64,000 nucleotides of DNA from Rhynchopus sp. YZ270_cl-10. Its lineage: Eukaryota. Below the pieces are notes generated by a model. That model did no database searches, was not told the DNA's origin, and saw nothing but the letters and a program-made list of their open reading frames with translations. The DNA lies in assembly GCA_964035575.1 (NCBI GenBank), contig OZ037836.1, forward strand, positions 1,240,001 through 1,304,000, written 5' to 3'. The position numbers and the translations under genes were made by a program. Position 1 is the stretch's first letter; the number at the start of each line of letters is the position of its first letter. This document shows, piece by piece, positions 24,951 to 61,751 of this stretch.

Positions 24951-25790
24951 TCATTGTGCGTGTCTCCGTCGCTTCTGGCTTTGCTCGGGGGATTCGTCTC
25001 TGCTTCGTTTCGGAAGTGCTTCAACCACAAGCTTACTCAGCTTCTTGTCGTTCCTCACTTCGTTGGACACCACACTGCTGCAGCCGGAAAGGTAAATGCT
25101 CGTCAACGAAGTGCAGTTCGCAGCAAAGTTCGTAGTATTATTGCAAGTCAAACCAATCGACGTCACATTGCTGAGTGGTGATAAATCCAGGGTGGTTAAG
25201 CTGCTGGACTTCGCAAGGAACCACGCGCCAACCTGTGTAACGTTGCTGAGTGGTGACACATCCAGCGTCGTTAAGCTGCTGCAGTTGTAAAGGAAGCCCG
25301 CACCGACCCGCGTCACATTGATCAACCCAGAGAGGTCGATACTTGTCAACGAGGTGCAGTGGTGTAGGAAGCAACCTGCAATGCGAGTCACAATGGACTC
25401 AGCACTGAGATCAAGTCTCGTCAACGAAGTGCGTGACAAGAAGTAACTCGGAATGACAGTCGCAACCTCCGCCTGTAGAAGCAAACACGCCACCTCAGGA
25501 TCTCTCACACTCTTCAACTTCTCGGCTGTGATGTCGGTCACACCCAACGCATGAAGCTCTGCAATGGCTTCTTGCTTCTGCGTCTTCGTGAGGATGATTG
25601 TGTCACCAGCACTCAGCTGCGTCATGTCCGCTCCTTCTCCCATCGGTTCGTCTCCGAAACTCATGCAAAAGCTGTCTTCAGGCAACCCCATTGCAGTCGC
25701 CACCTTCCGCCGCAAGCCCTCCACTGTGTCATCTTCACCCACCTCGACTGTGTGCTGATTCGCTCTGAAATCCTCGAAGTGCACGTCCAT
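24951..25790 (-). CDS. UBL-LRR protein, subfamily B, 5 LRRs, 279 aa
   Basis: Start MDVHFEDF from paralog alignment; tail PKRSRDESPEQSQKRRRHAQ. Confidence 0.85.
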   Translation of the reverse strand: MDVHFEDFRANQHTVEVGEDDTVEGLRRKVATAMGLPEDSFCMSFGDEPMGEGADMTQLSAGDTIILTKTQKQEAIAELHALGVTDITAEKLKSVRDPEVACLLLQAEVATVIPSYFLSRTSLTRLDLSAESIVTRIAGCFLHHCTSLTSIDLSGLINVTRVGAGFLYNCSSLTTLDVSPLSNVTQVGAWFLAKSSSLTTLDLSPLSNVTSIGLTCNNTTNFAANCTSLTSIYLSGCSSVVSNEVRNDKKLSKLVVEALPKRSRDESPEQSQKRRRHAQ

Positions 25791-26459
25791 CTGTTTGTTG
25801 TGGTTTTGTGTTCTGATCTCTGTGTGTGGTGGTGGGGTGTGGAGGACAACAAGCCTGCAGTCATTTTCAATGAAGGGTTGAAGGGCAGGGGTTCTTTGAG
25901 TACAATCGTACCATCGTGGGTTGGGCACATATACCCAGGTACCGACGTGCGGTTTTGTTAAATTGTTGAGTAGTGTAGTTGCCTCGGTTGTGTTGCCACA
26001 GTTGTGCAATCTCCACTTTGTATCTCTCTGTTTTGTGCAGGTGTTTTCAATTGGGGGTGAGAGTACGCAAGAGACAACAAACAGTCATAAGGGGAGAGGT
26101 CTTTTGGTATGCTACTTTTGTCCGAATATTTGTGAGAACAGTATTTAGAAGTGGTTGGTGATAACTTACTCGGATTTTCCGTTTGAGAGGAAGATAACCG
26201 GAGCCACGGCACTCTTCGTGTGCTGTGCCACGTTCTCCCCCACATTCCTTCCTCCCAGCCTGGCAGCGAAACAGCCGCACTGACACTAGAGCATCATATA
26301 AGCTGGCCTGACTGCAAAACAAATGAAAGAAGCAATGCACAAAACCCTAACATATGGCGTGCTAATAAAGAAGGGCGACCACCTTGTGTGTTGCGCTTCC
26401 TGTCCCCATGCACCATCCCCGAATATGCTTTCAAATGACATAGGTTCGTGATACTGGAT

Positions 26460-26651
26460 AAACAACAGCGCACGTCAGTTGTCTCACGTACAGTGTATAC
26501 ACCCTGAAAACGTAACCCCTTCCCTCTGGCACAGACCCCACCTTGGGCAGATGGTCTGCCCTACTGCCTCTTCTGCACCGTAGCTGAGTGCCACGGTGAC
26601 AGCTTGTACCCACCTGCGAAAGAATGTTCGCAAGGTCCCTTCTTCTACTAA
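26460..26651. repeat. Diverged fragment of the 203-bp repeat of the retroposon at 46462-49125
   Basis: TGGTCTGCCCTACTGCCTCTTCTGCACCGTAGCTGAGTGCCACGG...CCCTTCTTCTACTAA matches 48392-48490. Confidence 0.8.
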
Positions 26652-28140
26652 GGGAAAACAAACTTTTCGTCTGCGTGCGCGTCGGGACGTCCCCCAGAAA
26701 AACCCAGGCAGGCATGCAAAAAAAAGTTTGTTTTAATGGTGTGATTTTCCTAAAAATTAGGTGTAAATTGGGTACTTCTTGGGTCCTTCTTGGGTATAGT
26801 GATTTTCCTTAGGGCACTTCCTTAAGGAAAACGTGATCTTTTTCCCGAGCTTTCCCTGTGGTTAGTAGCCTTGTTTTCGCAAAAATTTTCTCAAAATCCG
26901 GGATTGGCACCCAGTACCCAGTACCCAGTACCCAGTACCCAGTACCCAGTACCCAGTACCCAGTACCCAGTACCCAGTACCCAGTACCCAGTACCCAGTA
27001 CCCAGTACCCAGTACCCAGTACCCAGTACCCAGTACCCAGTACCCAGTACCCAGTACCCAGTACCCAGTACCCAGTACCCAGTACCCAGTACCCAGTACC
27101 CAGTACCCAGTACCCAGTACCCAGTACCCAGTACCCAGTACCCAGTACCCAGTACCCAGTACCCAGTACCCAGTACCCAGTACCCAGTACCCAGTACCCA
27201 GTACCCAGTACCCAGTACCCAGTACCCAGTACCCAGTACCCAGTACCCAGTACCCAGTACCCAGTACCCAGTACCCAGTACCCAGTACCCAGTACCCAGT
27301 ACCCAGTACCCAGTACCCAGTACCCAGTACCCAGTACCCAGTACCCAGTACCCAGTACCCAGTACCCAGTACCCAGTACCCAGTACCCAGTACCCAGTAC
27401 CCAGTACCCAGTACCCAGTACCCAGTACCCAGTACCCAGTACCCAGTACCCAGTACCCAGTACCCAGTACCCAGTACCCAGTACCCAGTACCCAGTACCC
27501 AGTACCCAGTACCCAGTACCCAGTACCCAGTACCCAGTACCCAGTACCCAGTACCCAGTACCCAGTACCCAGTACCCAGTACCCAGTACCCAGTACCCAG
27601 TACCAAAGGGCCGATGGAGGGTTCCGAGACGGCGATAGCCTGCGACACTATGTCATGGGAAGGTGGGATACTAGCTTGCGCCGCAGGCGCACGGTACGCT
27701 ACTTTTATTGTTTCGGCGTATCCTTTTTTCTCACTCTTCGTTGGGTTCCACGAGCTCCGCCCGTCAAATGATGGGGTGTAAAATTCGCATCTACGCAAAC
27801 TGCCCCACGTTCATTTTGTACTTTTCCTTCAGAAGTCAAGTACTGACCATATTTTGCACACAGAACCTGAAAATGGCCTGTAAAAACTGACACATGCATT
27901 TTAGGTCAAAAATACTCATTTCTGAGCGCAAAGTGACCCCATCACAGCACGTACAGGCTCCGGTGCACCGAAATCAAAAAATTTTTTTTTTGATTTTTTG
28001 TGGGGAAAAATTTCTGGGGAAATTTTCTGGCCACAAAAAACCACCAAAAAGATGTACACAAAATAATTTTAGCACCCCCAAAAAAAAAAGGTGTAAAAAA
28101 GGTCCTTCTAAGGTCCTTCTAAGGTATACCACTACCCTTG
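26652..28140. mobile_element. Probable PIF/Harbinger-type non-autonomous element related to 38507-39465, carrying (CCCAGTA)n; right end not resolved
   Basis: Begins TAA|GGGAAAACAAACTTTTCG exactly where similarity to 48481-48490 stops; shares AAAAACC(C/T)AGGCAGGCA, the 25-nt hairpin motif and (inverted) 27890-27950 with 38507-39465. Confidence 0.5.
26910..27602. repeat. (CCCAGTA)n satellite, 99 units
   Basis: Perfect 7-bp tandem array. Confidence 0.98.
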
Positions 28141-30146: not shown

Positions 30147-31721
30147 AACCCCCCTCCCAACTATTGTTTACATCCAGGTATTGTTTACATGGCAGCGTCC
30201 GCGAAAGACCCCCCCCTAAAGCTAACATCCATGCTTATTGGTATTTCACTAATTAAAATTTTGGTATTTTATAAGATTTTTTTTTACAATGAACTCAGAG
30301 TTAAGTTTCTGAGCTCATTAAAAAAAAAATCGGTGAAAAATTCCGAGTAGGTATTAATTTAGATAGGAAAAGCTATGTCAACAGCTATGTGTCCCCTTAT
30401 TTTACCTGTAAATACTAAGGATATACAAGGAAATCCTCACAAACACCCATATAACCACCCATAGAACAACACAACAGGGGGAAATGTAATCAGCAGCCAA
30501 AGCATTCGCTCAGGAGCTGAAAACCCGGCCTTTCCGAGGCCTAAAAAACTTCGCCGAGCTGCAGGTGTATGCAGGGGTCCACTGGCAGGGGGGCAAAGGG
30601 TGGGGCGCGAGGAGCTGGATGCGCGAGGTGTGTAGCTCGAAGCATATGTCCCTCCATATGCAGAAGACAACCACCAGGAGAAAAGGGGTGTCCGCCGTTT
30701 ACTACTCCTGTAGTTGCATCAGCGACACCCTCAGGACAGTGACAGCGAGACGGAGGAGGAAGAGGAGGAACAGGCGGACAATTGTCTGTAACTCTTGGAG
30801 AGACTCATCACGGAGGTCAATAGGGTCACTCAAAAAAGGGGGTTTTCTGCGAGAAAGTCGACGTCGCCGCAGACGACCCGGAGCGTGAAGCTCTTTCGCG
30901 CTCTATTTAGAGTGTTCGGAGGGGGCGACAAGCCTCCACCCCCCTTTCCTCCCCCCCCTTTTTGATAATGGGTTTAGAGACAGATATTAGTGAATTCCTT
31001 CCTATATCCTTAGTATTTACAGGTAAAATAAGGGGACACATAGCTGCTGACATAGCTTTTCCTATCTAAATTAATACCTACTCGGAATTTTTCACCGATT
31101 TTTTTTTTAATGAGCTCAGAAACTTAACTCTGAGTTCATTGTAAAAAAAAATCTTATAAAATACCAAAATTTTAATTAGTGAAATACCAATAAGCATGGA
31201 TGTTAGCTTTAGGGGGGGGTCTTTCGCGGACGCTCCCACATATAATTATTCACAGCTATTATTTACATCCAATTACTATTTACATTCGAATTATTTATTT
31301 ACACCCCCTTTTTTTTTGCCGGTTTTTGGTGACGGGGTGCGGATTCGTGACCAAAAACACAATTTTTTGGAATTTCCGGAATCTGTCCAGAAAATGGTGG
31401 GGTCGATGTTGAAAATTGGACAATTTTTTGACCACTTAAATTTTGGAAAATATGAGCCCGGTCACTAGGTGGGGCCCATTTTCGGCCAAAAATTTTCACA
31501 AAATCCGAGTTTGTAAAATTGACCCTACACCCACATCAATTTCAATACTATACCTCACTTCACCTTCGGTTACCCTACAGGGGAGGTGTGGAAAATGTAA
31601 ACAATACATGAGTGATAATTATTTACATGTACTATTTACATTTAAATTATTTACATGTATTATTTACATGCACGAATACTATTTACATAAAAATATGTAA
31701 ACAATAGCTGTGAGGGGGGTT
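30147..31721. mobile_element. TIR element with TA flanks and TATTTACAT subterminal repeats, host to a nested element
   Basis: TA|AACCCCCCTCCCAACTATTGTTTACAT ... ATGTAAACAATAGCTGTGAGGGGGGTT|TA. Confidence 0.8.
30191..31237. mobile_element. Nested element with ~235-bp near-perfect TIRs and 4-bp TSD ACAT
   Basis: ACAT|GGCAGCGTCCGCGAAAGACC...(30191-30425) is the reverse complement of about 31003-31237 ...CTTTCGCGGACGCTCCC|ACAT; ~560-bp GC-richer spacer. Confidence 0.9.
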
Positions 31722-34700
31722 TAGTTGTTGATGCAGGCACCTCCGACTGACCCACGTACGATGCCAGCCATCCGGATGAAAGCACAAAAAAAAAAAAAAA
31801 AAAAAATGGGTAAATTGCGATAACACACACGTATACTTTTTTGTGTGCGTGTTATCGCAATTTACTAAAGAAATAATAACAGGGGGAAGAAACTCTCGTG
31901 CACACACATAAAAAAGTTGAAAGACGAGAAAAAAAAAATTAACTGGATGCACAAAAAGGGGGGGAGAACTGTTGGAGGGAGGGGATGGGAAAGAGAAGAA
32001 GAACTTATAAGATGACCCTAAGCCTCTCTGTGCTGAAGTCACCTTTGGACACAATCGTTATTGCACAGCATCAGCCTGACTGTGTAAAGCATTGCTGAGG
32101 CAGACGTCTCAGACTGACCCCGGACACCATCCCCAGACGATAGCACAACACAGAATACTCTGATAGGCAAGTAAAAGGGGGGGAAAAATTGGAATTTTTT
32201 TTTTTCCGTTGATTGCTCAATTACCCCTGTTGGAGGGGTGGTGATTGGCGATCGCATTGGGGGAACCATTTCTCCTTTAAGCCAAACGTTGTTTGTGAGA
32301 TCCAAACTATTTCATATACCGTAATCGTACTAATGTTCGTAAAAAAAAAAGGTCGAACTTCCAGAAAAATCTGAAAAGGTCAACAAACATATTTACGGTC
32401 GATATTTTTTTACGATTACGGTACTTCTTATACAACACCGCTGGTGATCAAGGATGCATCTAAGACTCGACAGGCAACCTCTGTCCCCTCTAACTGCTGT
32501 TGAACAGTCAGGACTTTAATATACATAAAAACATATCTTCAAGGACGTCCCCGTGCTCTGTAAACACACACACACACACACACCCTTTTTGAAATGTGGT
32601 TGTATTAGTGTAGACACCCGAGGATGCGCTCCAATATGTAAATCTGGGGCTTTTTTTTTTTTTGATAAATTTTTGGAGTAGTGTACACGGTGGAGTCTAC
32701 CCGGGGGGGAGTTACTCTTTGGGGGGGACTTAAAGGGGGACTCAAAGAGTCCCCCTAGGGGGACTATGTAGTCCACCTAGGGGGACTATAGTCCCCCTAG
32801 GTGGACTCTTTTGGTGGGTTCTTGTGGGTTGTGGGGGCTGGTGCTGGCAGGTATGTACACACCAGGGGGGTGGTGAGGGTCCCAGATGGGGCCCGGGGAG
32901 GTAAAAGGTCATGTTGTGCATATCATTGCACAGTTTATACAGTGCAAACTGTTGTTTGCCATTAGATGCGATACAATGACAGAGTCTTGTTGCTTATTTC
33001 CTTTCAGTCCTCAGTTGTTAACGCCTGATGTGGTTTGCATGTTTGAAATGTATAGCTATGAGAGCAGCTGCGCACGGGAGACGTGCCGAGAGAAGGAGCC
33101 GTCGCCATACTGGATAAGGCGACGGCCTACAACCATCCAGACCCACCCCAACTCCAGGGATAGACCCTCGGTCGCTGTCGTGATGATGGAGTCCCTCTAC
33201 GGCAGCAGCCCCTCCTGGGCCTCCCCCCACCAGCACCTTCATCATGTGCGCCAGGCAGGCACCTACATCGCCATATATACAGTCGCTCTCCGCACTCCAC
33301 TCCAACATACTCAGGTCGATGCACCTGGGTGGCTACACCACAGATGATGCGAGCGGTGTTAAAGGACGCTAGCGACCACCCCGCCTGGCAGAAGACCCCC
33401 GAGAAGACCGCACGCAAATGGCTTGCGAAAGCACATCGTGGATACCTCCGTGACTGCAGCACGCGATTGCAAGAACACCCGCCTGCTGATGCGACTGCTC
33501 GTGGAGGTGCACCCCGACACCGACCTCCGTCGCGTATCGGGCTTCGACGGCGTGCTGAGGATGAGGCCGCAGACAGCCTCACGCGAGAGGGTGGTGTGGC
33601 TGAGCCGGAGCACAGCCTCAAGGCTCGTGAAGCAGCATTGCTGCATCACGGGAGGGTGATGATCGCCTCACCCAAATATTTTGGGCTTGTCGTACGCCCC
33701 GTCCAGGAACGCAGCGCATGCGCCGCCAGAAGTCGCTCCTCATGCGGGCCCAAAGACCACCCAACCGCGGACTTTGTCGCCGCACTTAACAACAGCGGCC
33801 TCGCGTGCGCAACGCAGACCGTGCCGAGCACTGGGAAGACCTGGTGCGTTAAGTTAACATCATGACACCCGTCCCCAAAGACGCATGTGTCATCAAGGGA
33901 AGCCGGTGATGGCTTGCCAGGCCCAGCCTGGTCACCGATTCAGAAGCAGGAAGAGGGCGGGCCCGGCCACACCCGACAGCGCCAAGCCTGAGGCGAAACG
34001 GCAATGCAAGCCGGAAAAAAGGGGGCAAAAGAAATAGTAGGATCGGTAGGTAAGTAAAGTTGCTTCGTTCATTGCACAAACAAAATAGCAGCAACAGGAC
34101 CACTGCAGCCGAGGGAGAGGAGTCGAGGGAGGAGCTGCAGAGGCAGAACCTCGACCTTCTGCGACAGCTGGTGGAACTGAAGCAGCAGATAGCGTGACGG
34201 CACAGCTCACCGTCACCACCAACCAAGACACTGTGATGACAGCAAAGACCCCTTCTCAAGAGGTCTCTGCCACCTCCACAACTGGGATACACTCCACGCT
34301 CCCTAACCCCGGACCCAAACCCCTCAAGTGTCTCTCCGACAACATCAACGGATTGACACAAACGACACGAGCAGAAGCTGACGTGCCGTCTGCAGGACAC
34401 GGCGTTTGATGCAGGGGTGCAGGTTGTGCTTGCCCGCCCTCGCTTGGCCGACATCAAGTGTCCTGCTCAGTACAGTGTAACGCATACGGGAGACAACGGG
34501 TTACTGTCGCGTTGTGGAACGCTCTGCATCTATAGTAGCAGGCGTGGGCATGTTGGCGGCTTCGACACAGAAACCTACGAGCCTGTCTTCTCATTTGATT
34601 GATGCGGACAATTATGTGTACGGTGCGCCTGCCATCTCTCAGTGCAAGACACGCTGCTACCTGCCTTGTGGGGATTGCCTTCTCAAGGTTGCACTTCCGG

Positions 34701-36139: not shown

Positions 36140-37013
36140 TACTGTACTGTACTGTACTGTACTGTACTGTACTGTACTGTACTGTACTGTACTGTACTGT
36201 ACTGTACTGTACTGTACTGTACTGTACTGTACTGTACTGTACTGTGCTGTACTGTACTGTACTGTACTGTACTGTACTGTACTGTACTGTACTGTACTGT
36301 ACTGTACTGTACTGTACTGTACTGTACTGTACTGTACTGTACTGTACTGTACTGTACTGTACTGTACTGTACTGTACTGTACTGTACTGTACTGTACTGT
36401 ACTGTACTGTACTGTACTGTACTGTACTGTACTGTACTGTACTGTACTGTACTGTACTGTACTGTACTGTACTGTACTGTACTGTACTGTACTGTACTGT
36501 ACTGTACTGTACTGTACTGTACTGTACTGTACTGTACTGTACTGTACTGTACTGTACTGTACTGTACTGTACTGTACTGTACTGTACTGTACTGTACTGT
36601 ACTGTACTGTACTGTACTGTACTGTACTGTACTGTACTGTACTGTACTGTACTGTACTGTACTGTACTGTACTGTACTGTACTGTACTGTACTGTACTGT
36701 ACTGTACTGTACTGTACTGTACTGTACTGTACTGTACTGTACTGTACTGTACTGTACTGTACTGTACTGTACTGTACTGTACTGTACTGTACTGTACTGT
36801 ACTGTACTGTACTGTACTGTACTGTACTGTACTGTACTGTACTGTACTGTACTGTACTGTACTGTACTGTACTGTACTGTACTGTACTGTACTGTACTGT
36901 ACTGTACTGTACTGTACTGTACTGTACTGTACTGTACTGTACTGTACTGTACTGTACTGTACTGTACTGTACTGTACTGTACTGTACTGTACTGTACTGT
37001 ACTGTACTGTACT
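36140..37013. repeat. (CTGTA)n microsatellite, ~174 units
   Basis: Perfect apart from one CTGTG variant near 36245. Confidence 0.98.
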
Positions 37014-37022
37014 CCCAATCCC

Positions 37023-43965: not shown

Positions 43966-44817
43966 TCACTTCTGGCTTTGCTCGGGGGATTCGTCTCTGC
44001 TTCGTTTCGGACGTGCTTCAACCACAAGCTTACTCAGCTTCATGTCGACAACAAGATGCCTCAGCTCGCTGTTCATCACTTCGTCGGACACAACACTGCT
44101 GCAGCCGGAAAGGTAAATGCTCGTCAACGAAGTGCAGAACGCGGCAAATTGCGTAGTGTTACCAGTAAAAGGTTCCACACCAACCTGCGTCAGGTTGCTG
44201 AGTGGTGATAAATCTAGGGTGGTTAAGCTAGTGCACCTGTAAAGAAAGGTGCCACCCACCTGCCTCACATTGCTGAATGGTGACAAATCCAGGGTGGCTA
44301 AGCTCCCGCAGTACGCAAGGAAGGCCCTACCAACCTGCGTCACATTGCTCAACCCAGAGAGGTCGATACTTGTCAACGAGGTGCACTCTGCCAGGAAGCT
44401 GTCTCCAATGTGAGTCACAATGGACTCAGCACTGAGATCAAGTCTCGTCAACGAAGTGCGTCCCAAGAAGTATTTCGGAATGACAGTCGCAACCTCCGCC
44501 TGCAGAAGCAAACACGCCACCTCAGGATCCTCCACACTCTCCAACTTCTCGGCTGTGATGTCGGTAACACCCAACGCATGAAGCTCTGCAATGGCTTCTT
44601 GCTTCTGCGTCTTCGTGAGGATGATTGTGTCACCAGCACTCAGCTGCGTCATGTCCGCTCCTTCTCCCATCGCTTCGTCTCCGAAACTCATGCAAAAGCC
44701 GTCTTCAGGCAACCCCATTGCAGACGCCACCTTCCGCCGCAAGCCTTCCACTGTGTCATCCTCACCCACCTCGACTGTGTGCTGATTCGTGTCGAAACCC
44801 TTGATGTTCAGGTCCAT
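43966..44817 (-). CDS. UBL-LRR protein, subfamily B, 5 LRRs, 283 aa, tail shortened by CGA>TGA
   Basis: Start MDLNIKGFDTN; ends EQSQK*. Confidence 0.82.
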   Translation of the reverse strand: MDLNIKGFDTNQHTVEVGEDDTVEGLRRKVASAMGLPEDGFCMSFGDEAMGEGADMTQLSAGDTIILTKTQKQEAIAELHALGVTDITAEKLESVEDPEVACLLLQAEVATVIPKYFLGRTSLTRLDLSAESIVTHIGDSFLAECTSLTSIDLSGLSNVTQVGRAFLAYCGSLATLDLSPFSNVRQVGGTFLYRCTSLTTLDLSPLSNLTQVGVEPFTGNTTQFAAFCTSLTSIYLSGCSSVVSDEVMNSELRHLVVDMKLSKLVVEARPKRSRDESPEQSQK

Positions 44818-45764: not shown

Positions 45765-46461
45765 TCACTTCTGGCTTTGCTCGGGGGATTCGTCTCTGCT
45801 TCGTTTCGGACGTGCTTCAACCACAAGCTTACTCAGCTTCTTGTCCTTCCTCACTTCGTTGGACACAACACTGCTGCAGCCGGAAAGGTAAATGCTCGTC
45901 AACGAAGTGCAGTTCGCAGCAAAACGCGTCCCTGGTAAACTGCTATGAATCTGCGTCACATTGCTGAGTGGTGACAAACCCAGAGATGTTAAACTGCTGC
46001 AGTTCGCGAGGAAATATGCACCCACCTGCGTCACGTTGTTGAGTGGTGATAAATCGATGTTGGTTAAGCTGCTGCACTCGAAAAGAAAGCACGCACCAAC
46101 CTGCGTCACATTGCGGAGTGCAGATAAATCGACGTTGGTTAAGCTCGTGCAGGTAGAAAGAAAGCTGTTACCAACCTGCGTCACATTGCTCAACCCAGAG
46201 AGCTTGATGCTTGTCAACGAAGTGCAGTTGCACAGGAACCTGTCTCCAATGCGAGTCACAATGGACTCAGCACTGAGATCAAGTCTCGTCAACGAAGTGC
46301 CTGACAAGAAGTAATTCGGAATGACAGTCGCAACCTCCGCCTGCAGAAGCAAACACGCCACCTCAGGATCCTCCACACTCTCCAACTTCTCGGCTGTGAT
46401 GTCGGTCACACCCAACGCATGAAGCTCTGCAATGGCTTCGTACTTCTTCGTCTTCGTGAGG
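45765..46461 (-). pseudogene. 3' part (6 LRRs) of a subfamily B gene split by a retroposon
   Basis: Resumes at LTKTKKYEAIAEL after the duplicated target site. Confidence 0.88.
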
Positions 46462-47174
46462 TAGGGGTCCGTTTTAGGTCTCTGGCAGGCCGGGCCTTCT
46501 TTCTGTGGCCTTCCCAACCAAAAGACCCCCAAAAAACACAGGTACCTGCTGCGTTTAATGGCACTTTACCCCAGTCCCTGGAACAGATCGGCAAGCCGAC
46601 CAGCCCAGGTATGCATGCCAACACTACTGGGGGTGCACTGTTCGATAGCATAAAAGAAAAGTCAAAAAGTCAAAAAGACAAGAAGGTCAAACAAAATAGG
46701 TACTTCGAACAGGGCTGACAGGAGGGGATTCTCACCCGAGGTTCGGTGCCTGTCAGGCTGCGATTAGTGGTTCTGGGTGATTCCCTTCTTCCTAGCCACC
46801 GTTACCGCGGTGCCCGCACCGTAAGAGAGTGGGGACGGTTCACGACCGTTCGTACGCGTCAGCAAAAGTAGGGGTCGGAGTCCAGGCCCGAACCGGAAAC
46901 ATTAACCTCCGTTTTTCGAAACATTAAAAAGTAAAAATGAAAAAGAAAAATCAACAGCAAGAGCAGTGTTGCTGTAAAAGAAACAGCAGCACCGTCAGCT
47001 AACATGTCCACACAATATGGCAGACGGCCACACAAAATTCCCCTGATTTGTACAGAGAAAGTTGTAACTTCTTCCTTACAAGTAAGGGAGTGCCGGCAGG
47101 GAAGGAGTTACAACAAACAGTGAACAAACTCAAGTACCAGCCTTTCCGCGTAGCACAGACCCTACATTTGGTAG

Positions 47175-48450
47175 TTGGTCTGCCCTACTGCCTCATCTGC
47201 ACCGTAGCTGGACGCCACGGCGACAACTCCTTCATCTTCAACGTACCAAAGCACGTGAAAATAGAACAAAAACAAACAGATTGGAAAAACAACAGAGCAT
47301 GTACCTGCAGATCCACAGTTGTTTCACGTACAGTGCATACACCCTGAAAGTTTAACCTCTTCCTTCTAGCACAGACGTTGGTCTGCCCTACTGCCTCATC
47401 TGCACCGTAGCTGGACGCCACGGCGACAACTCCTTCATCTCCAACGTACCAAAGCACGTGAAAATAGAACAAAAATAAACACAATGGAAAAACAGCAGAG
47501 CATGTACCTGCAGATCCACAGTTGTTTCACGTACAATGCATACACCCTGAAAGCTTAACCTCTTCCTTCTAGCACAGACGTTGGTCTGCCCTACTGCCTC
47601 ATCTGCACCGTAGCTGGACGCCACGGCGACAACTCCTTCATCTCCAACGTACCAAAGCACGTGAAAATAGAACAAAAATAAACACAATGGAAAAACAGCA
47701 GAGCATGTACCTGCAGATCCACAGTTGTTTCACGTACAGTGCATACACCCTGAAAGTTTAACCTCTTCCTTCTAGCACAGACGTTGGTCTGCCCTACTGC
47801 CTCATCTGCACCGTAGCTGGACGCCACGGCGACAACTCCTTCATCTCCAACGTACCAAAGCACGTGAAAATAGAACAAAAATAAACACAATGGAAAAACA
47901 GCAGAGCATGTACCTGCAGATCCACAGTTGTTTCACGTACAGTGCATACACCCTGAAAGCTTAACCTCTTCCTTCTAGCACAGACGTTGGTCTGCCCTAC
48001 TGCCTCTTCTGCACCGTAGCTGAGCCACGGCGACAACTCCTTCATCTATCAACGTACCAAAGCACGTGAAAATAGAACAAAAATAAACACATTGGAAAAA
48101 CAGCAGAGCATGTACCTGCAGATCCACAGTTGTTTCACGTACAGTGCATACACCCTGAAAGCTTAACCTCTTCCTTCTAGCACAGACGTTGGTCTGCCCT
48201 ACTGCCTCTTCTGCACCGTAGCTGAGCCACGGCGACAACTCCTTCATCTATCAACGTACCAAAGCACGTGAAAATAGAACAAAAATAAACACATTGGAAA
48301 AACAGCAGAGCATGTACCTGCAGATCCACAGTTGTTTCACGTACAATGCATACACCCTGAAAGTTTAACCTCTTCCTTCTAGCACAGACGTTGGTCTGCC
48401 CTACTACTTCTTCTGCACCGTAGCTGAATGCCACGGCGACAACTTGTACC
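47175..48450. repeat. 202-203-bp tandem repeat, 6 full units plus a partial; degenerate copies extend to about 48740
   Basis: TTGGTCTGCCCTACT recurs at about 47175, 47378, 47581, 47784, 47987, 48189 and 48391. Confidence 0.95.
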
Positions 48451-49051
48451 CACCTGCGAATGAATGTTCGCAGATCCCTTCTTCTACTAACTTATAAAAA
48501 CGTAAAAACAGACCAAAAACTACAACATGCCACACTGAATTAACGACAGAGCACGCACCTGCAGATCCACAGATGTTTCACTACGGTGTACACAGCCTGA
48601 GGTTAAACACATAACACAAGAATTCTACTACGGCAAAAAGATGAAAACTGAACTGAACTGAACAAAACTACAACACACCACACTGAATACACAAGAGCAC
48701 GTACCTGCTGATCCACAGTTGTTTCACATACAGTGTACGCACCAACAAAGCAACAAAACGTTCCCATGCGGTCAAACGACAACACAGGAACAGCAACAAT
48801 ATTCCGTCACCAGTAGAGACACCGGCAACGCTTCCTTCTTGTACCTGGGATCCCCTCATCGGCATCAACACACTCCCAGTCACCGCACAGGTAACAGATC
48901 CTTGAAACCCCTCGAAGGGGTTTGCGTAGCCTACATAAGCTGGTGATCTGCCCGAAATTGACTGTGATGTTGTGTTAATAACCAGGGTTCCCACGTCGGC
49001 TTGTTCCTCCTCCGGTCCCGAGCGAATCCATCATTGGAGAGGCGGCCGCCC

Positions 49052-49125
49052 ACGCTGACTCAGTACCATGCGAACACGGCGTCCAGGGGCCCCACTTGGC
49101 GGTTGGTCAGACGTTAATTGCCCCC
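49052..49125 (-). ncRNA. HDV-like ribozyme candidate at the retroposon 5' end
   Basis: GGGGGC(P1) AATTA ACGTCTGAC(P2) CAA CC(P3) GCCAAGT(L3) GG(P3') G GCCCCT(P1', G1-U wobble) GG(P1.1) AC GCCGTG TTCG CATGGT(P4) ACTGA(J4/2) GTCAGCGT(P2'); P3 has only 2 Watson-Crick pairs. Confidence 0.7.
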
Positions 49126-49340
49126 TTCTTCGTCTTCGTGAGGATGATTGTGTCACCAGCACTCAGCTGCGTCATGTCCGCTCCTTCTCCCATCGCTTCG
49201 TCTCCGAAACTCATGCAAAAGCTGTCTTCAGGCAACCCCATTGCAGTCGCCACCTTCCGCCGCAAGCCCTCCACTGTGTCATCTGCACCCACCTCGACTG
49301 TGTGCTGATTCGTGTCGAAACCCTTGATGTTCACGTCCAT
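49126..49340 (-). pseudogene. 5' part (UBL domain) of the split subfamily B gene
   Basis: MDVNIKGFDTN...TIILTKTKK followed by the insertion. Confidence 0.88.
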
Positions 49341-50565: not shown

Positions 50566-51630
50566 TCATTGTGCGTGTCTCCGTCGCTTCTGGCTTTGCT
50601 CGGGGGATTCGTCTCTGCTTCGTTTCGGACGTGCTTCAACCACAAGCTTACTCAGCTCGCCGTTCCTCACTTCGTTGGACACAATACTGCTGCAGCCGGA
50701 AAGGTGAATGCTCGTCAACGAAGTGCAACCGACAGCTAGTTCCGTTGTACCAGACCAAGGATTCAAATCAATCGACGTCACCTTGCTGAGTGGTGACAGA
50801 TCCAGGGTCGTTAAGCCGCTGCAGTTCTGAAGGAACTCTGCGCCAACCTGTGTAACGTTGCTGAGCGGTGATAAATCTAGGGTTGTTAAGCTGCTGCAGC
50901 TTTCAAGAAAGTCGCACTCAATTTCCGTCACGTTGCTGAGTGCTGACAAATCGACGGAGGTTAAACTGACGCAGTCGTACAGGAAGTGCTCGCCAACATG
51001 CGTCACATTCCTGAGCGGAGGAAAATAGACGATGGTTAAGCTCGTGCATCCCTCGAGAAAAGCGCACTCAATGTTTGCCATGTTCCTGAGTGCTGACAAA
51101 TCCAGGGTCGTTAAACTCCTGCAGTTCATAAGAAACTCTGAACCGACCTGCGTCACATTGCTCAACCCAGAGAGGTCGATACTTGTCAACGAGGTGCAGT
51201 CTGCCAGGAAGCCGTCTCCAATGTGAGTCACAATGGACTCAGCACTGAGATCAAGTCTCGTCAACGAAGTGCGTGCCAAGAAGTCATTCGGAATGACAGT
51301 CGCAACCTCCGCCTGCAGAAGCAAACACGCCACCTCAGGATCCTCCACACTCTCCAACTTCTCGGCTGTGATGTCGGTCACACCCAACGCATGAAGCTCT
51401 GCAATGGCTTCTTGCTTCTTCGTCTTCGTGAGGATGATTGTGTCACCAGCACTCAGCTGCGTCATGTCCGCTCCTTCTCCCATCGCTTCGTCTCCGAAAC
51501 TCATGCAAAAGCTGTCTTCAGGCAACCCCATTGCAGACGCCACCTTCCGCCGCAAGCCCTCCACTGTGTCATCTTCACCCACCTCGACTGTGTGCTGATT
51601 CGTGTCGAAACCCTTGATGTTCAGGTCCAT
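50566..51630 (-). CDS. UBL-LRR protein, subfamily B, 8 LRRs, 354 aa
   Basis: Start MDLNIKGFDTN; intact ORF and tail. Confidence 0.87.
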   Translation of the reverse strand: MDLNIKGFDTNQHTVEVGEDDTVEGLRRKVASAMGLPEDSFCMSFGDEAMGEGADMTQLSAGDTIILTKTKKQEAIAELHALGVTDITAEKLESVEDPEVACLLLQAEVATVIPNDFLARTSLTRLDLSAESIVTHIGDGFLADCTSLTSIDLSGLSNVTQVGSEFLMNCRSLTTLDLSALRNMANIECAFLEGCTSLTIVYFPPLRNVTHVGEHFLYDCVSLTSVDLSALSNVTEIECDFLESCSSLTTLDLSPLSNVTQVGAEFLQNCSGLTTLDLSPLSKVTSIDLNPWSGTTELAVGCTSLTSIHLSGCSSIVSNEVRNGELSKLVVEARPKRSRDESPEQSQKRRRHAQ

Positions 51631-53097: not shown

Positions 53098-54309
53098 TCA
53101 TTGTGCGTGTCTCCGTCGCTTCTGGCTTTGCTCGGGGGATTCGTCTCTGCTTCGTTTCGCACGTGCTTCAACCACAAGCTTCCTCAGCTTCTTGTCGTTC
53201 CTCACTTCGTTGGACACAACACTGCTGCAGCCGGAAAGGTAAATGCTCGTCAACGAAGTGCAGTTCGCAGCAATGTTTGGAGGACCAAATGCCAAAAGAA
53301 ATGTCCTCACGTTGCTGAGTGGGGATAAATCAAGAGTCGTTAAGCTCCTGCAGCCGTCAAGAAAGCTGCTACCCATGTGCGTCACGTTGTTGAGTGGTGA
53401 GACATCGACAGAGGTTAAGCTGCGGCATTTGTAAAGGAAGCAATAGTCAACGTGCGTCACGTTGCTGAACGGAGATAAATCAAGTTTCGTTAAGCTCTTG
53501 CAGCTGCACATAAAACCGCCAGCAATGTGCGTCACATTGCTGAGTGCTGATAAATCGATGCTGGTTAAGCTCTCGCAGCCGGAAAGAAATATGCTCTCGA
53601 TCCGCGTCACATTACTGAATGCAGATAAATCGAGGGTCGTTAAGCTGATGCAGTCGTCAAGAAAGCTGCCAGACACCTGCGTCACGTTGCTGAGTGGAGA
53701 AAAATCGACAGTTGTTAAGCTCCTGCAGCCGGAAAGAAAGCAGCGAGGAATATGCGTAACATTGCTGAGTGGCGAAAAATCCAGGGTCGTTAAACTGCTG
53801 CAGCTGGAAAGAAAGCGCGCACCAATCACCGTGACATTGCTCAACCCAGAGAGGTCGATACTTCTCAACGAGTAGCAGCCTGCCAGGAAGCCGTCTCCAA
53901 TGCGAGTCACAATGGACTCAGCACTGAGATCAAGTCTCGTCAACGAAGTTTCTCCCAAGAAGTAATTCGGAATGACAGTCGCAACCTCCGCCTGCAGAAG
54001 CAAACACGCCACCTCAGGATCCTCCACACTCTGCAACTTCTCGGCTGTGATGTCTGTCTCACCCAACGCATGAAGCTCTGCAATGGCTTCTTGCTTCTGC
54101 GTCTTCGTGAGGATGATTGTGTCACCAGCACTCAGCTGCGTTATGTCCGCTCCTTCTCCCATCGCTTCGCCTCCGAAACTCATAGAAAAGCTGTCTTCAG
54201 GCAACCCCATTGCAGTCGCCACCTTCCGCCGCAAGTCCTCCACTGTGTCATCTTCACCCAGCTCGACTGTGTGCTGATTCGTGTCGAAACCCTTGATGTT
54301 CACGTCCAT
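53098..54309 (-). CDS. UBL-LRR protein, subfamily B, 10 LRRs, 403 aa
   Basis: Start MDVNIKGFDTN; intact ORF and tail. Confidence 0.87.
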   Translation of the reverse strand: MDVNIKGFDTNQHTVELGEDDTVEDLRRKVATAMGLPEDSFSMSFGGEAMGEGADITQLSAGDTIILTKTQKQEAIAELHALGETDITAEKLQSVEDPEVACLLLQAEVATVIPNYFLGETSLTRLDLSAESIVTRIGDGFLAGCYSLRSIDLSGLSNVTVIGARFLSSCSSLTTLDFSPLSNVTHIPRCFLSGCRSLTTVDFSPLSNVTQVSGSFLDDCISLTTLDLSAFSNVTRIESIFLSGCESLTSIDLSALSNVTHIAGGFMCSCKSLTKLDLSPFSNVTHVDYCFLYKCRSLTSVDVSPLNNVTHMGSSFLDGCRSLTTLDLSPLSNVRTFLLAFGPPNIAANCTSLTSIYLSGCSSVVSNEVRNDKKLRKLVVEARAKRSRDESPEQSQKRRRHAQ

Positions 54310-54368
54310 TTGTTTGTTGTGGTTTTGTGTTGTGATCTCTGTGTGTGGTGGGGTGTGGAGGACAACAA

Positions 54369-55111: not shown

Positions 55112-56023
55112 TCATTGTGCGTGTCTCCGTCGCTTCTGGCTTTGCTCGGGGGATTCGTCTCTGCTTCGTTTCGGACGTGCTTCAACCACAAGCTTACTCA
55201 GCTCGCCCTTCCTCACTGCGTCGGACACAACACTGCTGCAGCCGGAAAGGTAAATGCTCGTCAACGAAGTGCAGTGCGCAGCAAAGTGCGTACCTCCAGC
55301 ACGGCTGCCGATATGCGTAACGTTCCTGAGTGGCGACAAATACAGGGTCGTTAAGCTGGTGCAGTGCTGTAGGAACCACGCACCAACCTTCGTTACGTTG
55401 CTGAGTGGTGACAAATCCAGGGATGTTAAGCTGCTGCAGTTGTAAAGGAAGCCCGCACCAACCTGCGTCACATTGCTGAGTGCTGATAAATCGACGTTGG
55501 TTAAGTTGCTGCAGCCGTAAAGAAAGTGCTCACCAACCCGCGTCACGTTGCTCAACCCAGAGATGTCAAGACTTGTCAACGAGGTGCAGTGGGCCAGGAA
55601 CCTGTCTCCAATGCGAGTCACAATGGACTCAGCACTGAGATCAAGTCTCGTCAACCAAGTGTCGAACAAGAACCAATTCGGAATGACAGTCGTAACCTCC
55701 GCCTGCAGAAGCAAACACGCCACCTCAGGATCCCTCACACTCTCCAACTTCTCGGCTGTGATGTCGGTCACACCCAACGCATGAAGCTCTGCAATGGCTT
55801 CTTGCTTCTGCGACGCCTTCGTGAGGATGATTGTGTCACCAGCACTCAGCTGCGTCATGTCCGCTCCTTCTCCCATCACTTCGCCTCCGAAACTCATGCA
55901 AAAGCCGTCTTCAGGCAACCCCATTGCAGTCGCCACCTTCCGCCGCAAGCCCTCCACTGTGTCATCTTCACCCACCTCGACTGTGTGCTGATTCGTGTCG
56001 AAACCCTTGATGTTCAGGTCCAT
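55112..56023 (-). CDS. UBL-LRR protein, subfamily B, 6 LRRs, 303 aa
   Basis: Start MDLNIKGFDTN; intact ORF and tail. Confidence 0.87.
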   Translation of the reverse strand: MDLNIKGFDTNQHTVEVGEDDTVEGLRRKVATAMGLPEDGFCMSFGGEVMGEGADMTQLSAGDTIILTKASQKQEAIAELHALGVTDITAEKLESVRDPEVACLLLQAEVTTVIPNWFLFDTWLTRLDLSAESIVTRIGDRFLAHCTSLTSLDISGLSNVTRVGEHFLYGCSNLTNVDLSALSNVTQVGAGFLYNCSSLTSLDLSPLSNVTKVGAWFLQHCTSLTTLYLSPLRNVTHIGSRAGGTHFAAHCTSLTSIYLSGCSSVVSDAVRKGELSKLVVEARPKRSRDESPEQSQKRRRHAQ

Positions 56024-56082
56024 GTCTTTGTTGTGGTTTTGTGTTCTGATCTCTGTGTGTGGTGGGGTGTGGAGGACAACAA

Positions 56083-58840: not shown

Positions 58841-59683
58841 TCATTGTGCGTGTCTCCGTCGCTTCTGGCTTTGCTCGGGGGATTCATCTCTGCTTCGTTT
58901 CGGACGTGCTTCAACCACAAGCTTACTCAGCTTCTCGTCGTTCCTCACTTCGTTGGACACAACACTGCTGCAGCCGGAAAGGTAAATGCTCGTCAACGAT
59001 CTGCACTGCATAGCAAATAGCGTAGTAGAAGTATAGGGATTCAAACCAATCGACGTCACATTGCTGAGTGGTGATAAATCTAGGGTGGTTAAGCTCGTGC
59101 AGCCGGAAAGAAAGCCGCCACCCGCCTGCGTCACATTGCTGAGTCGTGACAAATCTAGGGTCGTTAAGCTGCCGCAGTACGCAAGGAAGCCCCTACCAAC
59201 CTGCGTCACATTGCTCAACCCAGAGAGGTCGATACTTGTCAACGAGGTGCACTCTGCCAGGAACCTGTCTCCAATGCGAGTCACAATGGACTCAGCACTG
59301 AGATCAAGTCTCGTCAACGAAGTGCGTGCCAAGAAGTCATTCGGAATGACAGTCGCAACCTCCGCCTGCAGAAGCAAACACGCCACCTCAGGATCCCTCA
59401 CACTCTTCAACTTCTCGGCTGTGATGTCGGTCACACCCAACGCATGAAGCTCTGCAATGGCTTCGTACTTCTTCGTCTTCGTGAGGATGATTGTGTCACC
59501 AGCACTCAGCTGCGTCACGCCCGCTCCTTCTCCCATCGCTTCGCCTCCGAAACTCATGCAAAAGCTGTCTTCAGGCAACCCCATTGCAGTCGCCACCTTC
59601 CGCCGCAAGCCCTCCACTGTGTCATCTGCACCCACCTCGACTGTGTGCTGATTCGTGTCGAAACCCTTGATGTTCACGTCCAT
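58841..59683 (-). CDS. UBL-LRR protein, subfamily B, 5 LRRs, 280 aa
   Basis: Start MDVNIKGFDTN; intact ORF and tail. Confidence 0.87.
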   Translation of the reverse strand: MDVNIKGFDTNQHTVEVGADDTVEGLRRKVATAMGLPEDSFCMSFGGEAMGEGAGVTQLSAGDTIILTKTKKYEAIAELHALGVTDITAEKLKSVRDPEVACLLLQAEVATVIPNDFLARTSLTRLDLSAESIVTRIGDRFLAECTSLTSIDLSGLSNVTQVGRGFLAYCGSLTTLDLSRLSNVTQAGGGFLSGCTSLTTLDLSPLSNVTSIGLNPYTSTTLFAMQCRSLTSIYLSGCSSVVSNEVRNDEKLSKLVVEARPKRSRDESPEQSQKRRRHAQ

Positions 59684-60908
59684 GTCTTTGTTGTGGTTTT
59701 GTGTTGTGATCTCTGTGTGTGGTGGTGGGGTGTGGAGGACAACAAACCTGGGGTCGTTTTCAAGAACCTTGCCCACCAACACTGTGGGGAGAAGGGGTTC
59801 GAAAGGGCAAGACCACGACCGTTTTGGTCCTAGAAATTTAGGGGGAAAGGAATTATTGTGCTCGGTTGTGTGCACATGCGTATCGAACGTATGACGCCAG
59901 GTGTGTCGGTTGGTTAGGGGTAACCGCACATATCATCCTCACAAATAAGGCAACAACGGAACACCGAAATGACAACTTCGCAAACGTTGTCTCAGCACAC
60001 ATCCAAGGATATGCAACACAACGATGCCCACTGTCCCTCTCCCCAACCCACAACCCCCGACTTCAGATCTCTCACCTCTCCACCCCCTCTCCCTGAACCA
60101 GCGCCCTTCACAGACGTTCCCTCCTCACGAAAGCAAACCCACCTTCCCCTGCCCCTCTCACGCACCGTTACCTGCCCCGTTCTGCACAAGAAACCCGCAC
60201 AGCCTCCACGCTGTCTCCACCCACCCCACGCAAGGAAGAACGCCAAAGGTGCTCTCGTGCTGCAACCACAGACAAGCTGAGGTGCCAGACAAATGCACGA
60301 AAGCACCCCACCGCCAGACACAGCTTCCCCTCCCACCATCACCACAAAGGATCGAGGGAAGCGCCACACCCAAACCCCCCACACTCACAACACTGTGCAC
60401 CTCCACCTCCCACAAGGACATGCGTTCACCCCAAGCACAGCAAAGCGCCTTAAAACAGAGCGCGTCCTCCCCCTGAGTCTGCCCAGTCACACTATCAAGT
60501 GAAAGCACGCCATCAGTGCATCAGAGCACACAACGGAAGCCACTCGCCTCCGTCATCACACCTCACACCTCTTCGTGCAAGCTACCAAGAAGACAGTGAA
60601 AGACCACGTGGTGTCAACGAGTTCAGAGTGATGAATTGCAGAAAAAAAGGGGGGTTGGGCGGGGAGGTACGTTGTAATGAATAAGACATGGGTTTTTGTG
60701 GGGATTCTTTTGCAGCACAGAGTAACATAACGCAATGTGTGGAACGTCTTGCTCAGCACAGCTCTCCTCTCGCACCAAGTAGTAGTCTGTGCCACGGTGA
60801 GCAAGACTGTGCCCCTCTTCTTCTCCGAACCAGAGGACGCAAGCAGACATACTGCCAGAGACCCTCCACCTCGGGGAGGTGCTGCCCTGCCACCAACACA
60901 CCACGTCG

Positions 60909-61751
60909 TCATTGTGCGTGTCTCCGTCGCTTCTGGCTTTGCTCGGGGGATTCGTCTCTGCTTCGTTTCGGACGTGCTTCAACCACAAGCTTACTCAGCT
61001 TCTTGTCGTTCCTCACTTCGTTGGACACAACACTGCTGCAGCCGGAAAGGTAAATGCTCGTCAACGAAGTGCACTTCATAGCAAATAGCGTAGCAGAAGT
61101 ATAGGGATTCAAATCAACCTGCGTCACATTGCTGAGTGGTGATAAATCTAGGGTGGTTAAGCTCGTGCAGCCGGAAAGAAAGCTGCTACCCACCTGCCTC
61201 ACATTGCTGAGTGCTGACAAATCCAGGGTCGTTAAGCTCTCGCAGTACGCAAGGAAGTGCCTACCAACCTGCGTCACATTGCTCAACCCAGAGAGGTCGA
61301 TACTTGTCAACGAGGTGCAGTCTGCCAGGAAGCTGTCTCCAATGCGAGTCACAATGGACTCAGCACTGAGATCAAATCTCGTCAACGAAGTGTGTGACAA
61401 GAAGTCTTTCGGAATGAAAGTCGCAACCTCTGCCTGCAGAAGCAAACACGCCACCTCAGGATCCTCCACACTCTCCAACTTCTCGGCTGTGATGTCTGTC
61501 TCACCCAACGCATGAAGCTCTGCAATGGCTTCTTGCTTCTTCGTCTTCGTGAGGATGATTGTGTCACCAGCACTCAGCTGCGTCATGTCCGCTCCTTCTC
61601 CCATCGCTTCGCCTCCGAAACTCATGCAAAAGCCGTCTTCAGGCAACCCCATTGCAGTCGCCACCTTCCGCCGCAAGCCCTCCACTGTGTCATCTTCACC
61701 CACCTCGACTGTGTGCTGATTCGTGTCGAAACCCTTGATGTTCAGGTCCAT
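60909..61751 (-). CDS. UBL-LRR protein, subfamily B, 5 LRRs, 280 aa
   Basis: Intact ORF; upstream region replaced by a LINE 3' end about 44 nt before the ATG. Confidence 0.87.
   Translation of the reverse strand: MDLNIKGFDTNQHTVEVGEDDTVEGLRRKVATAMGLPEDGFCMSFGGEAMGEGADMTQLSAGDTIILTKTKKQEAIAELHALGETDITAEKLESVEDPEVACLLLQAEVATFIPKDFLSHTSLTRFDLSAESIVTRIGDSFLADCTSLTSIDLSGLSNVTQVGRHFLAYCESLTTLDLSALSNVRQVGSSFLSGCTSLTTLDLSPLSNVTQVDLNPYTSATLFAMKCTSLTSIYLSGCSSVVSNEVRNDKKLSKLVVEARPKRSRDESPEQSQKRRRHAQ

What the first reader, a model, noticed from the sequence alone, without database searches (positions are those of the whole stretch)
24951..61751. Diversifying UBL-LRR-NLS receptor array with variable LRR number: candidate intracellular immune or targeted-degradation system
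Seen: eight subfamily B genes with LRRs have near-invariant UBL, linker and tail but 5, 5, 6, 8, 10, 6, 5 and 5 LRR units of 25 aa. Amino-acid differences concentrate at G-x-x-F-L-x-x-C-x positions. There is no signal peptide or TM segment, the UBL lacks a terminal GG, and the tail KRSR-x8-KRRR looks like a bipartite NLS. Established: integral UBL domains often dock on the proteasome or on ligase machinery, and variable LRR arrays (NLR, VLR) are recognition modules. Inference: these may be nuclear adaptors that bind variable foreign proteins (virus, TE, symbiont) and route them to degradation.
Basis: partly seen in the sequence, partly recalled or inferred. Interest (0 to 1): 0.82.

Follow-up and report, generated by a model that had tools for sequence, protein, structure and literature searches.

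The report
Diversifying LRR genes targeted by retrotransposons
A marine protist (a diplonemid) has well over a hundred genes for ubiquitin-like/leucine-rich-repeat proteins whose repeats are under strong diversifying selection, likely a repertoire of intracellular sensors of invaders, and several retrotransposons repeatedly insert into these genes at the same few codons.

Summary
There are eight UBL–helical linker–BspA-type LRR genes with 5,5,6,8,10,6,5,5 repeats, and variation sits at repeat positions 14,17,18,21,22,24. Only six are complete: one is split by a 2.66-kb retroelement (18-bp target duplication), and it and one other lose the second basic cluster.

The host is a diplonemid. At least 120 paralogs exist, apparently all in this genome. 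Diversifying selection passed every test: ω≈5.6 at variable codons against 0.25 elsewhere, M8 vs M8a 2ΔL 52, and ω≈12 in subfamily A. It held under multi-nucleotide and recombination controls.

Proteasome docking is weakened: the ubiquitin Ile44 position is Ser/Gly in 132 of 139 copies, and the selected sites lie off the canonical concave strand.

New here: the family is a retrotransposon hot spot like trypanosome RHS genes. 21 of 58 short copies break at codon 72–74 and 10 at 94–97, with the same elements in divergent subfamilies. One element is a LINE with an HDV-like ribozyme, a ubiquitin-like ORF1 and an OTU domain. Other subfamilies have CaaX-like tails or B-box fusions.

Best reading: a conflict-driven intracellular recognition repertoire. 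Expression, localisation and ligands are untested.

The parts
752..1972 (-). Subfamily A gene A1: UBL-linker-8 LRR-acidic/basic tail (406 aa)
2443..3663 (-). Subfamily A gene A2 (406 aa)
18922..19833 (-). Subfamily A gene A3: 5' end missing, joined directly to a LINE reverse-transcriptase fragment; tail cut short
19834..23946 (-). LINE (element E2) inserted after the linker codon AEKLES of gene B0, 3'-truncated. ORF1-like frame with a ubiquitin-like domain ending in LRGG (23626-23847); ORF2 with OTU protease (about 21857-22225), AP endonuclease and the start of RT
   Evidence: Pfam OTU 6e-8, Exo_endo_phos 8.6e-7, ubiquitin 2.9e-16; junction; coordinates
23878..23946 (-). HDV-like ribozyme at the 5' end of the LINE
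   Evidence: Rfam RF02682 37.2 bits, E 0.0021, below gathering score 44; it coincides with the junction
23947..24231 (-). B0: UBL and half of the linker, cut at hot-spot site 2
24951..25790 (-). B1: UBL-linker-5 LRR-basic tail (279 aa); mosaic UBL start
43966..44817 (-). B2: 5 LRR; stops before the second basic cluster
45765..46460 (-). B3 3' part: linker-6 LRR-truncated tail (interrupted gene)
46461..49124 (-). Element E1: 2.66-kb insertion with no long ORF at hot-spot site 1, internal 203-bp tandem repeat (47174-48444), 18-bp target-site duplication; likely a non-autonomous retroelement
49125..49340 (-). B3 5' part: UBL, ending at codon 72
50566..51630 (-). B4: 8 LRR, complete (354 aa)
53098..54309 (-). 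B5: 10 LRR, complete (403 aa); folded model
55112..56023 (-). B6: 6 LRR, complete
58841..59683 (-). B7: 5 LRR, complete
60909..61751 (-). B8: 5 LRR, complete
61795..64000 (-). 3' part of another LINE (RNase H) ending about 45 bp upstream of the B8 start codon
   Evidence: Pfam RVT_3 1.4e-9, RNase_H

Best explanation
These genes belong to a lineage-specific diplonemid family of UBL-linker-LRR proteins whose repeats are under diversifying selection, and which likely act inside the protist's own cell as variable binders of foreign proteins (symbiont, virus or retroelement) with the UBL as a fixed handle for a host partner. Shown: the architecture, more than 120 paralogs, change in repeat number in whole 75-bp units, recombination among copies, ω>1 at six positions per repeat, a hypervariable loop in the penultimate repeat, purifying selection on the repeat scaffold and (between subfamilies) on the UBL, and repeated insertion of the same retroelements at the same codons. 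Inferred: unequal crossing-over and gene conversion generate new binding surfaces while flanks are homogenised; the selected residues form one non-concave face; basic or CaaX-like tails send copies to the nucleus or to membranes; binding recruits a ubiquitin-system or dedicated partner through a UBL surface other than the Ile44 patch; the retroelements use this multicopy family as a renewable target, as ingi/RIME use RHS genes.
For: Selection: ω 5.6 at 18 variable codons vs 0.25 at 44 others (2ΔL 46.5); 4.2 with only neighbouring codons as the synonymous baseline; 6.1 and 4.8 with multi-nucleotide changes allowed. 0 of 75 and 0 of 52 neutral simulations with recombination reached it. M8 vs M8a 2ΔL 52, ω 8.5, with all 12 sites of posterior >0.8 at those positions. 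Subfamily A replicate ω 11.7, 2ΔL 79.9. Diversity: 556 of 566 units distinct; 58 of 59 penultimate loops distinct. Recombination p=0.0015. Confident fold (pLDDT 93.9). Modular variants: B-box(-coiled-coil) fusions, with weak Pfam zf-B_box hits in 4 and ANCHR-like B-box in 2 of 6 tested, and CaaX-like ends. Repeat consensus is 19-20 of 25 identical to Holosporales-type LRR proteins; diplonemids host Holosporaceae rich in LRR proteins (10.1101/719211, passages).
Against: No ligand, partner, localisation or transcript is shown. The Ile44-equivalent is Ile in 1 of 139 and the Val70-equivalent Val in 1 of 139, so the degradation step has no direct support. Selected sites are in the variable segment, not on the concave strand (positions 3-5) where most LRR receptors bind (PMC2946307 passages). 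There is no catalytic, NTPase or E3 domain in the window copies. Many copies are broken. Positive selection fits an exported effector equally well. The codon tests rest on 8 and 3 genes and on my own implementation.
Confidence: 0.5

Rival explanations
1. Crinkler/RHS-like exported effectors: the N-terminal UBL would be a translocation header, and the NLS or CaaX tail would place the variable LRR in the nucleus or membranes of prey, host or competitor cells.
For: CR effectors have signal-peptide-less Ubl headers, go to the nucleus and include the retrotransposon-hot-spot RHS genes (PMC5289972 passages). The same UBL is fused to a P-loop-like domain in P0343/P0435 (AAA_16 E 0.01-0.09). Diplonemids prey on or colonise algae and invertebrates (PMC8061765 passages). 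The repeats resemble Holosporales LRR proteins, many with hydrophobic N-termini.
Against: There is no LxLFLAK or HVLVVVP motif (strand 3 is F-x-M-S-F-G). The UBL is closest to ubiquitin itself. The window copies have no toxin or nuclease domain. The P-loop hit is below the Pfam cut-off and has no PDB relative.
Confidence: 0.25
2. RHS-like nuclear regulators or decoys involved in retroelement control: the family would bind retroelement proteins or chromatin, and its insertion hot spots would be part of that conflict.
For: Several elements insert at fixed codons. RHS proteins are nuclear and were proposed to control retroelements (PMC7563717 passages). The inserted LINE carries an OTU domain and a ubiquitin-like domain.
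Against: Targeting of a multicopy sequence needs no functional link. CaaX-like subfamilies would be non-nuclear. No binding to element proteins was tested.
Confidence: 0.12
3. One reading: the UBL docks directly on proteasome receptors (Rad23/Dsk2-like shuttle) and delivers LRR-bound targets.
For: Integral UBL without di-Gly; UBL conserved between subfamilies; Pfam ubiquitin hit.
Against: The hydrophobic patch used by shuttle UBLs (recalled: Leu8/Ile44/Val70) is Phe/Ser/Thr in most copies.
Confidence: 0.08
4. Neutral birth-and-death expansion or TE-driven amplification with unconstrained surface residues.
For: Many pseudogenes and insertions. The same positions also vary between repeats within single Holosporales proteins. 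ω in the B UBL is not below 1.
Against: ω is significantly above 1 at variable codons and 0.13-0.27 on the scaffold in B, replicated in A. Elements break the genes rather than carry them.
Confidence: 0.05

Closest known systems
BspA-like (TpLRR, Pfam LRR_5) families of Trichomonas vaginalis and Entamoeba
   Same: Same repeat class, large paralog expansion in a protist; some Entamoeba members end in CAAX (PMC2843621 passages).
   Different: Those are described as surface or extracellular proteins of mucosal microbes; 'ubiquitin' does not occur in PMC2843621. These have an N-terminal UBL, no signal or TM segment, basic tails, and a marine host.
Trypanosome RHS (retrotransposon hot spot) genes and Crinkler-RHS (CR) proteins
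   Same: Euglenozoan multigene family, conserved N-terminus with variable C-terminus, recombination, many pseudogenes, fixed 5' insertion site for a LINE and its non-autonomous partner (PMC7563717). CR headers are Ubl folds without a signal peptide (PMC5289972).
   Different: No RHS domain, NTPase or REase in the window genes. The variable part is a BspA LRR. There are at least three hot spots used by about eight element types (told apart by junction peptide), not one.
Variable lymphocyte receptors and plant/animal NLR LRRs (recalled)
   Same: Variable repeat number, positive selection on repeats, and a hypervariable loop near the C-terminal cap.
   Different: Different LRR class; germline paralogs, no evidence of somatic assembly; no NB/NACHT domain; selected sites are off the concave strand.
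Holosporales LRR proteins (P0310, P0326, P0349) and a Flectonema neradi LRR protein (P0339)
   Same: The 25-aa repeat consensus is 20/25 (P0310) and 19/25 (P0339) identical.
   Different: They lack the UBL and the helical linker. Direction of any transfer was not tested, and a 2026 preprint reports no clear transfer from Holosporales symbionts to diplonemids (10.64898/2026.01.29.702485 passages).
Ubiquitin + DUF285 (BspA-like) clusters in the ESM Atlas
   Same: UBL fused to a BspA-like repeat.
   Different: Scores 0.80-0.82, a lead only; different repeat family; taxa mostly unrecorded.

Membership tests
BspA/TpLRR repeat proteins | LRR_5 repeat LxxLxLxxxLxxIgxxAFxx(C/N)xx, 23-25 aa | tested here: met
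   Pfam LRR_5 81 bits over cut-off 27.7; consensus in PMC2946307; top PDB fold match is a Bacteroides LRR protein
BspA/TpLRR repeat proteins | Surface or secreted location (signal peptide or TM segment) | tested here: not met
   Hydropathy scan of 7 ORFs; no dedicated predictor was available
Proteasome shuttle UBL proteins (Rad23/Dsk2 type) | Integral UBL with Ile44-centred hydrophobic patch | tested here: not met
   Ser 108, Gly 24, Ile 1 of 139; Val70 position Thr in 127 of 139; the role of the patch is recalled
Proteasome shuttle UBL proteins (Rad23/Dsk2 type) | Binding to Rpn1/Rpn10/Rpn13 | not testable with these tools
   No partner sequence of this organism was held
RHS / Crinkler-RHS proteins | Fixed retrotransposon insertion site in the 5' coding region | tested here: met
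   21 of 58 short copies break at codon 72-74, 10 at 94-97; same elements in different subfamilies
RHS / Crinkler-RHS proteins | CR NTPase/REase or RHS domain | tested here: not met
   No such Pfam hit in B1, B5 or A1 at E 0.1; one outlying paralog pair has a weak AAA_16 hit
RHS / Crinkler-RHS proteins | Ubl header with LxLFLAK / HVLVVVP | tested here: not met
   Ubl present but motifs absent
NLR immune receptors | NB-ARC/NACHT NTPase | tested here: not met
Diversifying receptor repertoire (functional class) | ω>1 on repeat positions with conserved scaffold | tested here: met
Diversifying receptor repertoire (functional class) | Expressed, binds non-self ligands, triggers a response | not testable with these tools
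   Needs RNA data and bench work
TRIM-like proteins (outlying paralogs only) | RING + B-box + coiled coil | tested here: inconclusive
   Weak B-box hits, no RING hit; gene models not checked

The most novel reading that the evidence does not exclude
A unicellular euglenozoan has built a germline, compartment-addressed (nuclear, membrane, B-box-fused) intracellular immune repertoire from a symbiont-type LRR and a ubiquitin-like handle. It is locked in an arms race with its own site-specific retrotransposons, which knock out receptor genes at fixed codons and carry an OTU deubiquitinase and a ubiquitin decoy.
Probability: 0.12. Interest if true: 0.92.

Novelty: new variant of a known kind. Interest (0 to 1): 0.63.

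Why it matters
How single-celled eukaryotes recognise intracellular bacteria, viruses or retroelements is largely open. This family gives a concrete, testable candidate in diplonemids: more than a hundred paralogs, selected sites mapped to six positions per repeat, and alternative targeting tails. It is also a second euglenozoan case, beside RHS, of retrotransposons inserting at fixed codons of a protein-coding family. That offers AP-endonuclease-type elements with defined target sites to study.

Tried and rejected
No whole genome was held, so DNA-level tests use only window copies.

Sequencing-run search: no RNA holder listed. This is no evidence on expression. The four laid runs have no library type on record.

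Relatives in viral contigs (72 pattern matches, 0 confirmed) and metagenome contigs (261, 0 confirmed): none.

Earlier scan notes: nothing.

The first class test had the cap codons off by one position. It gave ω 4.3 and was replaced. Its UBL, linker and tail rows are unaffected.

Rfam did not detect a ribozyme at the 5' end of E1, and MFE folding was not better than shuffles. An HDV-like pairing there is my reading by eye only.

I considered the linker as an F-box or BC-box by eye and rejected it. It is treated as a helical N-cap, and no Pfam family other than a PhnG chance hit covers it.

E1 as an intron was rejected: no GT-AG ends, an 18-bp duplication and high copy.

The Atlas look-up of P0343 and the VIA fold comparisons did not complete, so the P-loop variant and a finer fold match stay open.

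Surface mapping was not possible because model coordinates are not returned.

No complex prediction was run: no candidate partner sequence was held.

The careful tree did not finish (the quick tree was used) and test_one_clade was not run.

Zhang et al. 2016 on CR proteins was not held; I know it only through the review PMC5289972. Paper supplements were not read and could list this family.
Full report
HOST AND CONTEXT. The window is eukaryotic. Its HELQ-like helicase (10113-13832) is 47-50% identical to three unnamed proteins and 49% to a Diplonema papillatum protein, then 35-40% to trypanosome and animal proteins. I read the host as a diplonemid other than D. papillatum. No assembly was available to search.

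OBSERVATION. The repeat counts 5,5,6,8,10,6,5,5 hold if the long penultimate unit and the capping unit are counted. Pfam finds ubiquitin and LRR_5. AlphaFold gives a confident model of B5: a β-grasp UBL, three linker helices, a solenoid and a C-terminal helix (pLDDT 93.9, pTM 0.82). Foldseek's best matches are bacterial and viral LRR proteins with low whole-chain TM scores.

FAMILY SIZE. A search with B4 listed the best 120 of 2656 hits among 7994 scored candidates; many of the lower hits are probably unrelated LRR proteins. All 120 listed are this family, from ENA or the window, on 26 contig lengths, and 47 are on the window's own 2.16-Mb contig (my count). 119 of 120 have the UBL. A profile of the N-terminal 147 positions gave 75 clusters at 50% identity with E≤1e-30, most of them full or truncated family members by inspection. 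Eight of the most divergent members looked up are ENA-only, and four sit on contig lengths shared with close paralogs, so the radiation appears to lie within one genome. Only 150 of 930 hits were visible, so presence in other diplonemids is not excluded. No relative was confirmed in viral or metagenome contigs.

SELECTION. Entropy over 550 repeats from non-window paralogs peaks at positions 14,17,18,21,22,24 (2.9-3.7 bits) and 3 (2.6). I tested the first six in the 62 codons (cap, units 1-2) that are one-to-one in all eight B genes, using my own GY94 implementation. ω is 5.6 at 18 codons against 0.25 at 44 (2ΔL 46.5). It is 4.2 when only neighbouring codons supply the synonymous rate, and 6.1 and 4.8 with multi-nucleotide changes allowed. 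The copies recombine (neighbour-incompatibility p=0.0015). I therefore simulated ω=1 with trees shuffled every six codons, with and without a doubled local rate: 0 of 75 and 0 of 52 runs reached the observed value (maxima 8.4 and 17.7). M8 vs M8a, with no preset classes, gave 2ΔL 52 and ω 8.5; its 12 best sites all fall on those positions once the cap label is shifted by one. The three colinear A genes replicate this (ω 11.7 at 39 codons, 0.87 at 157, 2ΔL 79.9). The UBL in B has almost no synonymous divergence (tree length 0.05 vs 0.66 in unit 2; ω 3.0, p=0.04), and B4-B8 3' flanks are 98-100% identical. Its invariance is therefore recent homogenisation. Between subfamilies the UBL is under purifying selection (dN 0.27-0.30, dS 0.8-1.1).

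WHAT THE UBL AND TAIL SAY. The UBL aligns without gaps to ubiquitin 6-57. The Ile44 position is Ser in 108 and Gly in 24 of 139 alignable copies (154 examined); Val70 is Thr in 127. Shuttle UBLs use this patch for proteasome receptors (recalled), so direct docking is doubtful. Of 119 close paralogs, 81 have two basic clusters, 21 one, 10 a CaaX-like end (one subfamily) and 7 other. Of 35 distant representatives, 9 end CaaX-like, some poorly. Some distant members carry B-box-like zinc fingers before the module (weak Pfam hits), and one pair has the UBL on a P-loop-like domain. The model's strands are at repeat positions 3-5, the concave face in PMC2946307 (passages). The selected sites lie in the variable segment, which is atypical for LRR receptors. 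That they form one face is inferred, not mapped.

RETROTRANSPOSON HOT SPOTS. E1 (46461-49124) interrupts B3 after codon 72 with an 18-bp duplication. E2 interrupts B0 after linker codon 94-95. It begins with an HDV-like ribozyme (RF02682, E 0.002, below gathering) and encodes a ubiquitin-like domain, OTU, AP endonuclease and the start of RT. Among all 58 short family proteins found, 21 end their family match at profile 72-74, 10 at 94-97 and 7 at 151-152. Uniform placement of the 52 ends within positions 60-160 never put more than 10 in three codons in 20,000 draws. Site 1 is also the UBL edge, which may inflate recovery. The junction peptides, however, identify the inserts: E1's 5' end follows codon 72 in 11 clusters, its 3' end precedes the duplicated codons in 7, and E2's 5' end follows site 2 in 4 more; six further signatures recur at fixed sites. 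The flanking residues are subfamily-specific. On a quick, weakly resolved UBL tree of 166 rows, E1 carriers need 8 changes (at least 3 forced by strong branches) and E2 carriers 4 of 4. This means repeated independent insertion. In public-run contigs, the E1 3' end joins family sequence in the junction pieces shown, and both distinct outward loose ends read as site-1-like (my reading; 8 loose-end rows and 206 pieces not shown). This parallels trypanosome RHS genes, where ingi and RIME insert at one 5' site (PMC7563717 passages). OTU domains are known from Ginger and Helitron transposons (PMC2836005 passages); my one search showed none for a LINE, which is not proof of absence.

ORIGIN OF THE REPEAT. 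Outside the family, the best repeat matches include Holosporales proteins and a Flectonema neradi protein (4 named of 10 looked up as such; consensus 19-20 of 25 identical). They lack the UBL and linker. Diplonemid symbionts encode many LRR proteins (10.1101/719211 passages), but a 2026 preprint found no clear symbiont-to-host transfer (passages). Direction and even transfer are untested.

MECHANISM AND RIVALS. Strong, replicated diversifying selection on a binding scaffold with a constant N-terminal module is the signature of biological conflict. I favour an own-cell recognition repertoire (0.5). An exported Crinkler-like effector reading (0.25) is the main rival, because CR proteins combine a Ubl header, nuclear targeting and hot-spot genes (PMC5289972 passages). 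A retroelement-control role (0.12), a strict proteasome shuttle (0.08) and neutrality (0.05) follow. Ligand, partner, location and expression are all untested.

NOVELTY. Ten literature searches (listings) showed no description of a UBL-BspA family in diplonemids. Term searches in the D. papillatum genome paper main text found no 'leucine-rich', 'LRR' or 'ubiquitin' (PMC10161547); supplements were not read. Each ingredient has a precedent: BspA expansions, RHS hot spots and Ubl headers. The combination, the measured selection and the several element-specific hot spots appear new. Verdict: new variant of a known kind, interest 0.63.

Noticed in passing
window 19834-23946 (-): LINE whose ORF1-like frame has a ubiquitin-like domain ending in LRGG and whose ORF2 has an OTU domain with Cys and His motifs present: a possible self-processing or anti-ubiquitin pair.
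   Followed up: partly
P0264, P0284, P0286, P0282, P0304, P0309, P0321: Distant paralogs, most with B-box-like zinc fingers and a likely coiled coil, ahead of (UBL-)linker-LRR: TRIM-like without a RING hit.
   Followed up: partly
P0343 / P0435: The family UBL is joined at the site-1 position to a P-loop-like domain (weak AAA_16), reminiscent of CR-NTPase architecture.
   Followed up: partly
P0370: Family UBL fused in frame at site 1 to a 5'-truncated reverse transcriptase, 48% identical to the window LINE's RT start.
   Followed up: partly
window 26476-26651: Degenerate (about 80%) relative of E1's 203-bp repeat outside any family gene, upstream of B1.
   Followed up: no
window 40258-42630 (-): 791-aa predicted membrane protein with a PDC-like sensor domain and a degenerate cyclase-like C-terminus (the latter by eye).
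   Followed up: no
window 10113-13832 (-): HELQ/POLQ-like helicase with a long low-complexity N-terminus; used for lineage placement.
   Followed up: partly
window 1-157, 26909-27604, 36140-37357, 15371-15732, 18124-18502: Long perfect microsatellites (CTGTA, ACCCAGT, TACTG, CTGTGTATA) and palindromic 10-bp arrays, some inside inverted-repeat-flanked segments (30190-31238, 32796-35921) that look like DNA transposons.
   Followed up: no
window, about 45-60 bp upstream of each B start codon: Conserved CA-rich leader with a possible trans-splice acceptor AG; sequence further upstream switches among four unrelated types, one being a LINE 3' end, suggesting another insertion or recombination point.
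   Followed up: no
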